Source of the DNA: Escherichia phage ph0011 | Sequence record: OP557969.1 | DNA: 64,000 nucleotides | Reading direction: 5' to 3' (one strand) | Shown: positions 35,806 through 35,864 of the stretch, piece after piece | How the letters are laid out: each line of letters starts with the position of its first letter | Position numbering within the stretch: the first letter of the stretch is position 1 | Translations under genes and position numbers: made by a program | Notes under the pieces: generated by a model | Databases searched by the model: none | The model's input: the letters and a program-made list of their open reading frames with translations, nothing else | What the model was told of the DNA's origin: nothing

Positions 35806-35864
35806 AAAAAAACTCCAAGATTAGATATATGATAAATATCTAAAACAAATCTTGGAGTTTTTTT
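35806..35864 (+). terminator. Long hairpin with nested palindrome
   Basis: ctccaagatt ... aatcttggag 10-bp stem enclosing agatat/atatct; followed by ttttttt and then the next start codon. Confidence 0.5.

What the first reader, a model, noticed from the sequence alone, without database searches (positions are those of the whole stretch)
35806..35864. Nested hairpin immediately upstream of a start codon
A 10-bp stem (ctccaagatt / aatcttggag) encloses a second palindrome (agatat / atatct) and ends 4 nt before the ATG at 35868. It would terminate the IF3/ClpS transcript and could also control initiation of the next gene.
Basis: seen in the sequence. Interest (0 to 1): 0.4.

Follow-up and report, generated by a model that had tools for sequence, protein, structure and literature searches.

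The report
Terminator hairpin hiding a late promoter
The hairpin is real and conserved across a whole group of giant phages. [quoted passage not shown] This is a known kind of device in a new phage group.

Summary
The window comes from a PBECO4/121Q/RaK2-like jumbo coliphage, about 91% nucleotide identity. The nested hairpin at 35806-35864 is exactly as described. It folds at -24.5 kcal/mol (z = -6.2) and is the strongest local inverted repeat in the 64 kb.

It sits between the ClpS-like gene and a KTSC virion-protein gene in all 16 related GenBank genomes examined (several genera) and in further IMG/VR contigs. The stem shows compensatory changes.

Three blocks are invariant:
- ACTCCAA, the 5' arm.
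- ATAAATA, at the apex.
- TTGGAGTTTTTT, the 3' arm plus T-run.

GGAG in the 3' arm is the Shine-Dalgarno of the downstream gene. ATAAATA is the T4-like late-promoter motif already predicted at this orthologous site in phage CBB.

Upstream, a conserved sigma70-type promoter drives IF3-ClpS. Downstream lie three virion genes.

Best model: the element is an intrinsic terminator for the early unit and also a ribosome-site mask on read-through RNA. Late transcripts start inside the hairpin, about 35843-35847, so they lack the 5' arm and neither terminate nor hide the ribosome site. T4 genes e, soc and I-TevI work the same way.

Verdict: a new member of a known kind, of moderate interest. No transcript mapping exists.

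The parts
34659..34687 (+). Sigma70-type promoter of the IF3-ClpS unit (TTGACA, 17-nt spacer, TATAAT; 12 of 12 matches)
   Evidence: Found by the promoter scan. A TTGACA-type promoter lies at the same place upstream of IF3 in most relatives with enough flank: six of the eight loci examined have one (121Q, CBB and Yen9-04 UViGs, Munch-like, L026, L029), L048 only a degenerate TTGACG, and the XaC1-like L044 none.
34732..35235 (+). Phage IF3 gene
   Evidence: Pfam IF3_N at 3.7e-17 and IF3_C at 1.6e-13; phrog_9787.
35249..35794 (+). ClpS-like adaptor gene, the last gene of the early unit
   Evidence: Pfam ClpS at 5e-4, below the curated cut-off. phrog_15940 at 1.8e-94.
35806..35812 (+). A-run that can pair with the T-run; variable in relatives (0-7 A)
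35813..35822 (+). 5' arm of the outer stem (CTCCAAGATT); the CTCC part is the anti-Shine-Dalgarno
   Evidence: ACTCCAA is invariant in 16 genomes. The stem is 99.4% paired, with 3 compensatory pairs.
35823..35841 (+). Inner stem-loop: AGATAT, loop ATGATAA, ATATCT
   Evidence: An inner helix is present in most relatives with different sequences (GAG/CTC, TTTTGAG/CTCAAAA, GGTAT/ATACC). It is absent in XaC1.
35832..35838 (+). ATAAATA, the predicted gp55-type late promoter (-10-like box); GATAAATA matches T4 TATAAATA at 7 of 8 positions
   Evidence: - Invariant in all relatives.
- The orthologous site in CBB is published as predicted late promoter Porf_320 (PMC5259590 Table S7).
- The motif is depleted in the window overall (16 found against 42 expected).
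- Matches to the looser motif [ACG]TAAATA sit just upstream of virion genes.
35843..35847 (+). Predicted late transcription start zone (inferred, not mapped)
   Evidence: The T4 late box lies about one helical turn upstream of the start (PMC2988020). RNA starting here lacks the 5' arm.
35848..35857 (+). 3' arm of the outer stem (AATCTTGGAG), containing the Shine-Dalgarno GGAG at 35854-35857
   Evidence: The probability that GGAG is unpaired is 0.00 in read-through RNA and 0.5-0.98 in the late RNA. UE-S1 annotates the ribosome-binding site at the equivalent position.
35858..35864 (+). T-run (7 T): terminator tail and also the spacer between Shine-Dalgarno and AUG
   Evidence: A run of 6-8 T is present in every relative.
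35868..36413 (+). KTSC-domain gene, first gene of the late unit
   Evidence: Pfam KTSC at 1.4e-13. The CBB orthologue CBB_320 was found in virions by MS/MS, with 4 peptides and 37% coverage (PMC5259590).
36385..38765 (+). Two virion structural protein genes (36385-37974 and 37974-38765), co-transcribed downstream
   Evidence: phrog_18596 and phrog_25121, both 'virion structural protein'.
38769..38789 (+). Canonical terminator that closes the late unit
   Evidence: Terminator scan.

Best explanation
The 59-nt element does three jobs at the junction between an early operon and a late operon on the same strand.

1. In RNA made from the sigma70-type promoter upstream of IF3, the stem plus the 7-U tail acts as an intrinsic terminator and 3'-end stabiliser for the IF3-ClpS message.
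2. In any RNA that reads through, the 3' arm stays paired with the 5' arm. The Shine-Dalgarno GGAG of the downstream virion gene is buried, so the gene is not translated early.
3. Late in infection, RNA polymerase carrying the phage gp55-family sigma starts at the ATAAATA box in the apical part of the hairpin, at about 35843-35847. These transcripts contain only the 3' arm. They cannot form the terminator and their Shine-Dalgarno is free.

Shown here:
- The structure, its conservation and its covariation.
- The Shine-Dalgarno sits in the stem.
- The motif is invariant and its spacing is fixed.
- The gene classes on each side.
- A gp55-family sigma is encoded by the lineage.

Inferred:
- That termination happens.
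- The position of the late start.
- That translation is repressed.
For: Structure:
- z = -6.2.
- It is the strongest local inverted repeat in the window.
- It is present at the same junction in 16 related genomes from Asteriusvirus, Alcyoneusvirus, Mimasvirus, Eneladusvirus and unclassified relatives.
- Pattern-matching copies occur once per contig in 25 IMG/VR contigs. Only a sample of these was checked for flanking genes, and at least 7 of the 25 lie in an unrelated gene context.
- The 11-bp outer stem is 99.4% paired, and 3 pairs show changes on both sides. No shuffle and no slid register matches this. RNAalifold gives the same stem.

Promoter:
- ATAAATA is invariant.
- It lies 15 nt from GGAG in 15 of 16 genomes and 14 nt in the other. 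The 5' spacing varies from 3 to 15 nt.
- The CBB paper predicts exactly this site as late promoter Porf_320 and reports a gp55-like sigma.
- That sigma has 74-76% identical homologues in E. coli Asteriusvirus relatives and hits the gp55 PHROG family.
- In the window the motif is depleted overall (16 against 42 expected).
- The genes I picked out as having [ACG]TAAATA immediately upstream are almost all PHROG 'virion structural protein' genes. Genes behind sigma70 or extended -10 promoters are mostly DNA-metabolism genes.

Ribosome-site mask:
- GGAG is 100% paired in read-through RNA in all 16 genomes. It is largely open in most of the RNAs starting 6-8 nt after the box.
- This start region is the most occluded of 86 genes in the window, at 0.007 against a median of 0.49.

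Terminator:
- A run of 6-8 T directly after the stem is conserved everywhere.
- A sigma70 promoter upstream of IF3 is conserved in most relatives examined.
- The d'Aubenton-Carafa-type score is +21.8. The formula was recalled from memory.

Precedent:
- T4 genes e, soc and I-TevI use hairpins that sequester the ribosome-binding site and have a late promoter inside (PMC3014915 and PMC2988022).

Same design elsewhere:
- Window 13356-13398 and 23764-23790.
- CBB_201, CBB_204 (tail sheath) and CBB_234.
Against: - No transcript ends, start sites or expression data exist for any Rak2-like phage in the libraries searched.
- The late promoter is a bioinformatic prediction only. The box here is GATAAATA, not T4's TATAAATA.
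- The CBB authors found no gp33 or gp45 homologues in this phage group, so the late machinery may differ from T4's.
- The hairpin is atypical for an intrinsic terminator, with 25 nt between the outer arms. It was missed by the simple scan, and the CBB orthologue was missed by ARNold (Table S8).
- The T-run is also the spacer between the Shine-Dalgarno and AUG. A similar GGAG-T5-ATTAC-ATG start region precedes IF3 without any hairpin. Conservation of the T-run therefore does not by itself prove termination.
- In some relatives (XaC1, Munch, RaK2) the Shine-Dalgarno of the predicted late RNA is still partly paired with coding sequence.
- No gp55 homologue lies inside the window.
Confidence: 0.68

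Rival explanations
1. It is a plain intrinsic terminator of the IF3-ClpS operon and nothing more. The downstream gene is expressed by read-through or from elsewhere, and the apical sequence has no function of its own.
For: The stem plus a 7-T tail sits directly after the last gene of a unit that has its own sigma70 promoter. The T-run is conserved. The window has many other terminators at gene-cluster ends.
Against: - It does not explain why ATAAATA is invariant while the rest of the loop varies.
- It does not explain the fixed 15-nt distance from ATAAATA to GGAG.
- It does not explain why the same motif precedes other virion genes.
- It does not explain why the arm sequence CTCC/GGAG is frozen instead of covarying.
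- The other terminators in the window have 3-5 nt loops.
Confidence: 0.15
2. It is an RNase III (or other double-strand-specific) processing site. It would separate the early IF3-ClpS message from downstream RNA and might unmask the ribosome-binding site after cleavage, as at T7 intergenic sites or the lambda N leader.
For: In the window the A-run, outer stem and inner stem stack to about 24 bp with a 6-nt bulge. This resembles T7 R-sites, a resemblance recalled from memory.
Against: The A-run that gives the two-turn length is not conserved. It is 0-5 A in most relatives, which leaves 11-13 bp plus 3-7 bp. This model has no role for the invariant ATAAATA. It was not tested.
Confidence: 0.06
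3. It acts at the DNA level as a palindromic operator or cruciform. A dimeric phage regulator would bind it, or the extruded structure would present the -10 box single-stranded to help promoter opening.
For: It is a perfect inverted repeat centred on the promoter box. The group reportedly lacks the T4 co-activators gp33 and gp45, so some other activating feature could exist.
Against: - The spacing between the arms varies from 15 to 25 bp between genomes. That is hard to reconcile with a fixed dimer footprint.
- Compensatory changes keep pairing rather than sequence.
- Other late-promoter sites in the window (1851, 33810, 42329) have no palindrome.
Confidence: 0.05

Closest known systems
T4 late genes with hairpins that sequester the ribosome-binding site and an internal late promoter (gene e lysozyme, soc, I-TevI/II/III, segB, Aeh1 mobE)
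   Same: - A late gene lies downstream of an early or middle unit on the same strand.
- The Shine-Dalgarno is paired in long transcripts.
- A TATAAATA-type late promoter is placed so that late transcripts lack the 5' strand and are translated (PMC3014915 and PMC2988022).
   Different: - Here the hairpin also carries a conserved 6-8 U tail at the end of an operon, so it looks like an intrinsic terminator as well.
- The promoter sits in the apical loop, closed by a second inner stem.
- The phage is a Rak2-like jumbo phage, not a T-even.
- The box is (G/C)ATAAATA.
- Nothing has been tested experimentally.
Intrinsic (Rho-independent) terminators of E. coli and its phages
   Same: A stem containing G-C pairs is followed at once by a U-run. 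It lies just after a stop codon at the end of a transcription unit.
   Different: There are 25 nt between the outer arms, reduced to a 7-nt apical loop only by a nested stem with a 6-nt bulge. The element overlaps the next gene's promoter and ribosome-binding site. Standard predictors miss it.
Predicted late promoters of Rak2-like phages (ATAAATA; Buttimer et al. 2017 for CBB, which also cites GAP32)
   Same: The motif is the same, and the site is the orthologue of Porf_320, listed in CBB Table S7.
   Different: The published list gives only the 14-nt motif. The enclosing hairpin, the Shine-Dalgarno in the stem and the terminator tail are not described. This hairpin is absent from their terminator table.

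Membership tests
Intrinsic terminator | Stable stem-loop containing G-C pairs | tested here: met
   The core hairpin 35813-35857 folds at -14.8 kcal/mol. With the A/U extension it reaches -24.5 kcal/mol, z = -6.2.
Intrinsic terminator | U-run immediately 3' of the stem | tested here: met
   7 T at 35858-35864. A run of 6-8 T is present in all relatives.
Intrinsic terminator | Compact hairpin with a short loop (about 3-10 nt) | tested here: inconclusive
   The outer arms are 25 nt apart. The nested 7-bp stem leaves a 7-nt loop and a 6-nt bulge. The consensus scan did not report it, and ARNold did not report the CBB orthologue.
Intrinsic terminator | Position at the end of a transcription unit | tested here: met
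   It lies 11 nt after the ClpS-like stop codon. A sigma70 promoter precedes IF3, and it is conserved in most relatives examined.
Intrinsic terminator | RNA 3' ends at the U-run | not testable with these tools
   No Term-seq or RNA-seq for this phage group was found.
T4-type (gp55) late promoter | TATAAATA-like box with A/T-rich DNA downstream and no -35 element | tested here: met
   GATAAATA at 35831-35838 matches 7 of 8 positions. The ATAAATA core is invariant in 16 genomes. TCTAAAACAAA follows it. The definition comes from PMC2988020.
T4-type (gp55) late promoter | The phage encodes a gp55-family sigma | tested here: met
   The sigma of CBB_244 hits phrog_234, 'late sigma transcription factor'. 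It has 74-76% identical homologues in E. coli and Salmonella Asteriusvirus-like genomes. It is not within this 64-kb window.
T4-type (gp55) late promoter | The motif is associated with late (virion) genes | tested here: met
   Genes at 1887, 13405, 17927, 23799, 42347 and 48332, plus the 35868 cluster, have the motif upstream and are all virion structural families. The one exception among the hand-picked sites is 33854, of unknown function. A blind scan within 100 nt flags four more genes (21484, 26817, 58896, 30305) that I did not classify. Depletion elsewhere is shown.
T4-type (gp55) late promoter | Late-specific transcription start about one helical turn downstream; dependence on gp55, gp33 and the clamp | not testable with these tools
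   No start-site data exist. The CBB authors report no gp33 or gp45 homologues.
T4-style ribosome-site mask with an internal late promoter | Shine-Dalgarno paired in the 3' strand of a stable hairpin in long transcripts | tested here: met
   The probability that GGAG is unpaired is 0.00 in all 16 genomes. This is the most occluded start region of 86 genes in the window.
T4-style ribosome-site mask with an internal late promoter | Late transcripts begin 3' of the 5' strand, so the mask cannot form | tested here: met
   This follows from geometry. The box ends at 35838 and the 3' arm starts at 35848. The 15-nt box-to-GGAG spacing is conserved. The start site itself is inferred.
T4-style ribosome-site mask with an internal late promoter | Measured repression of translation on long transcripts | not testable with these tools
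   This needs reporter fusions or toeprinting.
Rfam RNA families | A match reaching a family's gathering score | tested here: not met
   Only miRNA-precursor noise was found, at 13-18 bits against thresholds of 72-249.

The most novel reading that the evidence does not exclude
Rak2-like jumbo phages may systematically build 'promoter inside terminator' junctions as compact insulators. These would allow late virion genes to be scattered among early replication genes on one strand.

Candidate examples:
- The late box in the hairpin apex at 35832 and at 17876.
- A sigma70 -10 element in the loop of a terminator-like hairpin at 52852-52889.
- Ribosome-site masks at several other late genes.

In addition, the small inner palindrome around the late box might help promoter opening in a lineage that lacks recognisable gp33 and gp45 co-activators.
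Probability: 0.12. Interest if true: 0.6.

Novelty: new member of a known kind. Interest (0 to 1): 0.35.

Why it matters
If confirmed, the element shows that T4's way of keeping late genes silent in early read-through RNA is conserved in a distant group of 350-kb jumbo phages. There it is fused with an intrinsic terminator into one 59-nt module.

Practical consequences:
- It gives a concrete, mutable handle for dissecting temporal control in Rak2-like phages, which have no transcript maps.
- It improves annotation, because standard terminator finders miss these nested hairpins.
- It offers a compact part that combines a terminator, a promoter and a ribosome-site mask for phage engineering.

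It does not open a new kind of mechanism.

Tried and rejected
- Rfam search of 35600-36000 found only sub-threshold miRNA-like hairpin noise.
- Searching IMG/VR with the ClpS-like protein returned a single locus.
- Literature searches for transcriptomes or start-site maps of Rak2-like or Asteriusvirus phages found none. PA5oct RNA-seq is too distant and reports different motifs. The RaK2 genome paper does not discuss promoters.
- A gp55 homologue was sought inside the window and none was found.
- A bidirectional terminator was rejected. The upstream A-run is not conserved and no minus-strand genes converge here.
- A repeated mobile element was rejected. There is one copy per genome and none elsewhere in the window.
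- The 45559-45610 hairpin around a TATAAT is not significant, z = -1.5.
- My first d-score for the 17876 hairpin used wrong boundaries and should be ignored.

Full report
**Identity of the window**

DNA around the finding is 91-93% identical to Escherichia phages UE-S1, PBECO4, 121Q and their kin (Asteriusvirus). It is 67-83% identical to other Rak2-like jumbo phages of Klebsiella, Salmonella, Cronobacter, Erwinia, Yersinia, Serratia, Pectobacterium and Xanthomonas. The window is 33.6% G+C, and a simple ORF partition puts 82 of 87 genes on the + strand.

**The observation**

The sequence reads as follows:
- Stop codon of the upstream gene, 35792-35794.
- A7, 35806-35812.
- CTCCAAGATT, 35813-35822.
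- AGATAT, 35823-35828.
- ATGATAA, 35829-35835.
- ATATCT, 35836-35841.
- AAAACA.
- AATCTTGGAG, 35848-35857.
- T7, 35858-35864.
- ATT, then ATG at 35868.

As RNA it folds at -24.5 kcal/mol against -8.3 +/- 2.6 for shuffles, z = -6.2. It is the first-ranked local inverted repeat in the 64 kb.

IF3 has both Pfam domains. The ClpS-like protein has a weak Pfam score and a strong PHROG match. Downstream lie a KTSC-domain protein and two 'virion structural protein' families.

**Conservation**

I fetched the junction between the ClpS-like gene and the KTSC gene from 16 related GenBank genomes. Every one has a hairpin there, at -18 to -26 kcal/mol.

The alignment shows three invariant blocks:
- ACTCCAA in the 5' arm.
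- ATAAATA at the apex.
- TTGGAGTTTTTT, the 3' arm plus T-run.

The 11-bp outer stem is 99.4% paired. Three pairs change on both sides, for example G-C to A-U in the Asteriusvirus phages and in CBB. No column shuffle and no slid register reaches this. RNAalifold finds the same stem.

The inner helix is rebuilt with different sequences in different genera (AGATAT/ATATCT, GAG/CTC, TTTTGAG/CTCAAAA, GGTAT/ATACC). It is missing only in XaC1, where the loop is short.

A pattern scan of IMG/VR found 25 contigs, each with exactly one copy. The element is therefore single-copy, not a dispersed repeat.

The first point is the ribosome-binding site. GGAG at 35854-35857, inside the 3' arm and 10 nt before the ATG, is the Shine-Dalgarno of the downstream gene. 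UE-S1 annotates the ribosome-binding site at the equivalent place.
- In RNA that includes the upstream gene, the four bases are paired with probability 1.00 in all 16 genomes.
- The start region of this gene is the most occluded of 86 genes in the window, with mean unpaired probability 0.007 against a median of 0.49.

The second point is the late promoter. ATAAATA is the motif that Buttimer et al. found by MEME upstream of CBB structural genes and proposed as a T4-like late promoter.
- Their Table S7 lists 'Porf_320 231,630-231,643 ATAAATACTCAAAA'. That is exactly the orthologous apical sequence.
- Their terminator table does not list the hairpin.
- CBB_320, the KTSC orthologue, was detected in virions by MS/MS.
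- CBB encodes a gp55-like sigma. I confirmed that it hits the gp55 PHROG family and has 74-76% identical homologues in E. coli Asteriusvirus relatives. It is not inside this window.

**Evidence from the window that ATAAATA is a late promoter**

- The heptamer is strongly depleted, at 16 occurrences against 42 +/- 6 expected.
- Of the 11 copies on the + strand, seven lie within 100 nt upstream of a start codon.
- Genes that I picked out as having an [ACG]TAAATA immediately upstream (1887, 13405, 17927, 23799, 42347, 48332 and the 35868 cluster) all belong to PHROG 'virion structural protein' families. The exception among these hand-picked sites is 33854, of unknown function.
- A blind scan within 100 nt flags four further genes (21484, 26817, 58896, 30305) that I did not classify, so the association is not exhaustive.
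- Genes behind sigma70-type or extended -10 promoters encode SSB, primase, exonucleases, topoisomerase II and similar functions, plus a few of unknown or auxiliary function.

Virion genes are thus scattered among replication genes on one strand. That is the situation in which early read-through into late genes is a risk.

**Geometry**

The distance from the end of ATAAATA to GGAG is 15 nt in 15 of 16 genomes and 14 nt in XaC1. The distance from the 5' arm to the box varies from 3 to 15 nt.

T4 late boxes lie about one helical turn upstream of the start (PMC2988020). This puts the predicted start at about 35843-35847, in the A-rich bulge just 5' of the outer 3' arm. An RNA starting there has no 5' arm. 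Its GGAG is 0.5-0.98 unpaired in the window and its close relatives, and less so in a few distant ones. It also cannot form the terminator stem.

**The early unit**

A perfect TTGACA-17-TATAAT promoter lies at 34659-34687, 45 nt before IF3. A TTGACA-type promoter is found at the same place in six of the eight relatives for which I had enough upstream sequence. L048 has only a degenerate TTGACG, and the XaC1-like L044 has none.

The hairpin with its 6-8 T tail directly follows the last gene of this unit. A d'Aubenton-Carafa-type score is +21.8, at least as good as the canonical terminators in the window. Two caveats apply: the formula was recalled from memory and the energies are ViennaRNA values.

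Caveats on termination:
- The outer arms are 25 nt apart.
- Standard predictors miss the hairpin.
- The T-run doubles as the spacer between the Shine-Dalgarno and AUG. A similar GGAG-T5 spacer precedes IF3 with no hairpin.

**Mechanism proposed**

The element is an intrinsic terminator for the early IF3-ClpS RNA and a ribosome-site mask on read-through RNA. It also carries an internal late promoter whose transcripts escape both effects.

This is the arrangement established for T4 gene e, soc, I-TevI and others (PMC3014915 and PMC2988022). Here a terminator tail is added and the promoter is placed in the apex.

**The same logic elsewhere**

- Window 13356-13398: the box is in the 5' arm and the 3' arm abuts the Shine-Dalgarno, z = -3.4.
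- Window 23764-23790: CTAAATA lies just before a hairpin that masks the Shine-Dalgarno, z = -3.5.
- Window 17857-17909: the box is in the apex of a terminator-like hairpin between two virion genes, z = -4.9. It is conserved in Turkey5 and Yen9-04.
- CBB_201, CBB_204 (tail sheath) and CBB_234.

**Rivals**

- A plain terminator leaves the invariant box, the fixed spacing and the frozen CTCC/GGAG unexplained.
- An RNase III site needs the A-run extension, which is not conserved.
- A DNA operator or cruciform is disfavoured by the variable arm spacing and by the compensatory changes.
- Rfam has no matching family.

**Novelty and limits**

The late-promoter prediction at the orthologous site is published. 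I found no description of the enclosing hairpin, the Shine-Dalgarno in the stem or the composite reading in the searchable literature. The mechanism is a known kind, so this is a new member.

All functional steps are inferred: termination, the late start and translational repression. No transcript mapping exists for this phage group.

Noticed in passing
window 17857-17909: A second nested, terminator-like hairpin lies between two virion structural genes: AGACCTTTTC...TGTGATAAATATCATA...GAGACAAAGGTCT followed by T6ATTTTT. ATAAATA (17876-17882) is in its apex and z = -4.9. Here the Shine-Dalgarno (GGAG, 17918) lies outside the stem. The hairpin is conserved in Turkey5 and Yen9-04, is weaker in Muenster, and 7t3 has GTAAATA in the loop.
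   Followed up: partly
window 13356-13398: Hairpin TTCCATAAATATTAG / CTATTATTTATGGAA, z = -3.4. The late box lies in the 5' arm and the 3' arm runs into the Shine-Dalgarno-like GGAAGGA before the ATG at 13409 of a virion structural gene. (The ORF I gave to PHROGs started at 13405, which is in frame but is not a start codon.) There is no T-run, so this is a pure T4 gene-e style mask.
   Followed up: partly
window 23764-23801: CTAAATA (23764-23770) lies directly upstream of a small hairpin, TCCTATG/TATAGGA. Its 3' arm holds the Shine-Dalgarno AGGAG of a virion structural gene (ATG at 23799). z = -3.5.
   Followed up: partly
window 52841-52895: A sigma70-type promoter (TTGACA, 18-nt spacer, TATAAT) has its -10 element in the loop of a strong terminator-like hairpin, GGGTGCGTTTTTCAATA...TATTGAAAACGCACTC followed by TTTTT. 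The fold is -18.9 kcal/mol, z = -5.3. The 'promoter inside terminator' layout is therefore not limited to late promoters.
   Followed up: partly
window, whole: The heptamer ATAAATA is strongly avoided, at 16 occurrences against 42 +/- 6 expected. The + strand copies concentrate just upstream of virion genes. This is consistent with selection against spurious late promoters.
   Followed up: partly
window 34714-34734: The start region of IF3 (TTGGAGTTTTTATTACATG) closely resembles that of the KTSC gene (TTGGAGTTTTTTTATTATG), but no hairpin masks it. Relatives show GGAGTTATAAAA..ATATG there.
   Followed up: partly
L024 6530-6575 (minus strand); also L034, L036, L038, L040, L045, L047: Seven small metagenomic viral contigs have no IF3, ClpS or KTSC homologues. 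They carry ACTCCAAATTCTTATAAATATTAGCAAATAAGAATTTGGAGTTTTTTATG, a 15-bp stem with a perfect TATAAATA, the Shine-Dalgarno in the 3' arm and a T-run, in front of a tail-fibre-assembly-like gene. The shared arm ends were imposed by my search pattern. The extra 8 bp of pairing were not.
   Followed up: partly
L023 (CBB 111000-160999): upstream of CBB_201, CBB_204, CBB_234: Published late-promoter sites of CBB for the neck protein, the tail sheath and a virion protein lie in or just after the 5' arm of hairpins whose 3' arm contains the Shine-Dalgarno and start. One example is TTAATCCTC-ATAAATA-...-GGAGGATTAAATG for the tail sheath. Other CBB sites follow a canonical terminator instead.
   Followed up: partly
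window 29598-29624: A 12-bp perfect hairpin, AAAGGAGCAACA-TAT-TGTTGCTCCTTT, lies between convergent genes and is scored as a terminator on both strands.
   Followed up: no
window 51701-52837: The window encodes a protein matching the PHROG 'tellurite resistance' family at 1.9e-135, behind a sigma70-like promoter. The same window carries IF3 and the ClpS-like adaptor, so host-like auxiliary genes are abundant.
   Followed up: no
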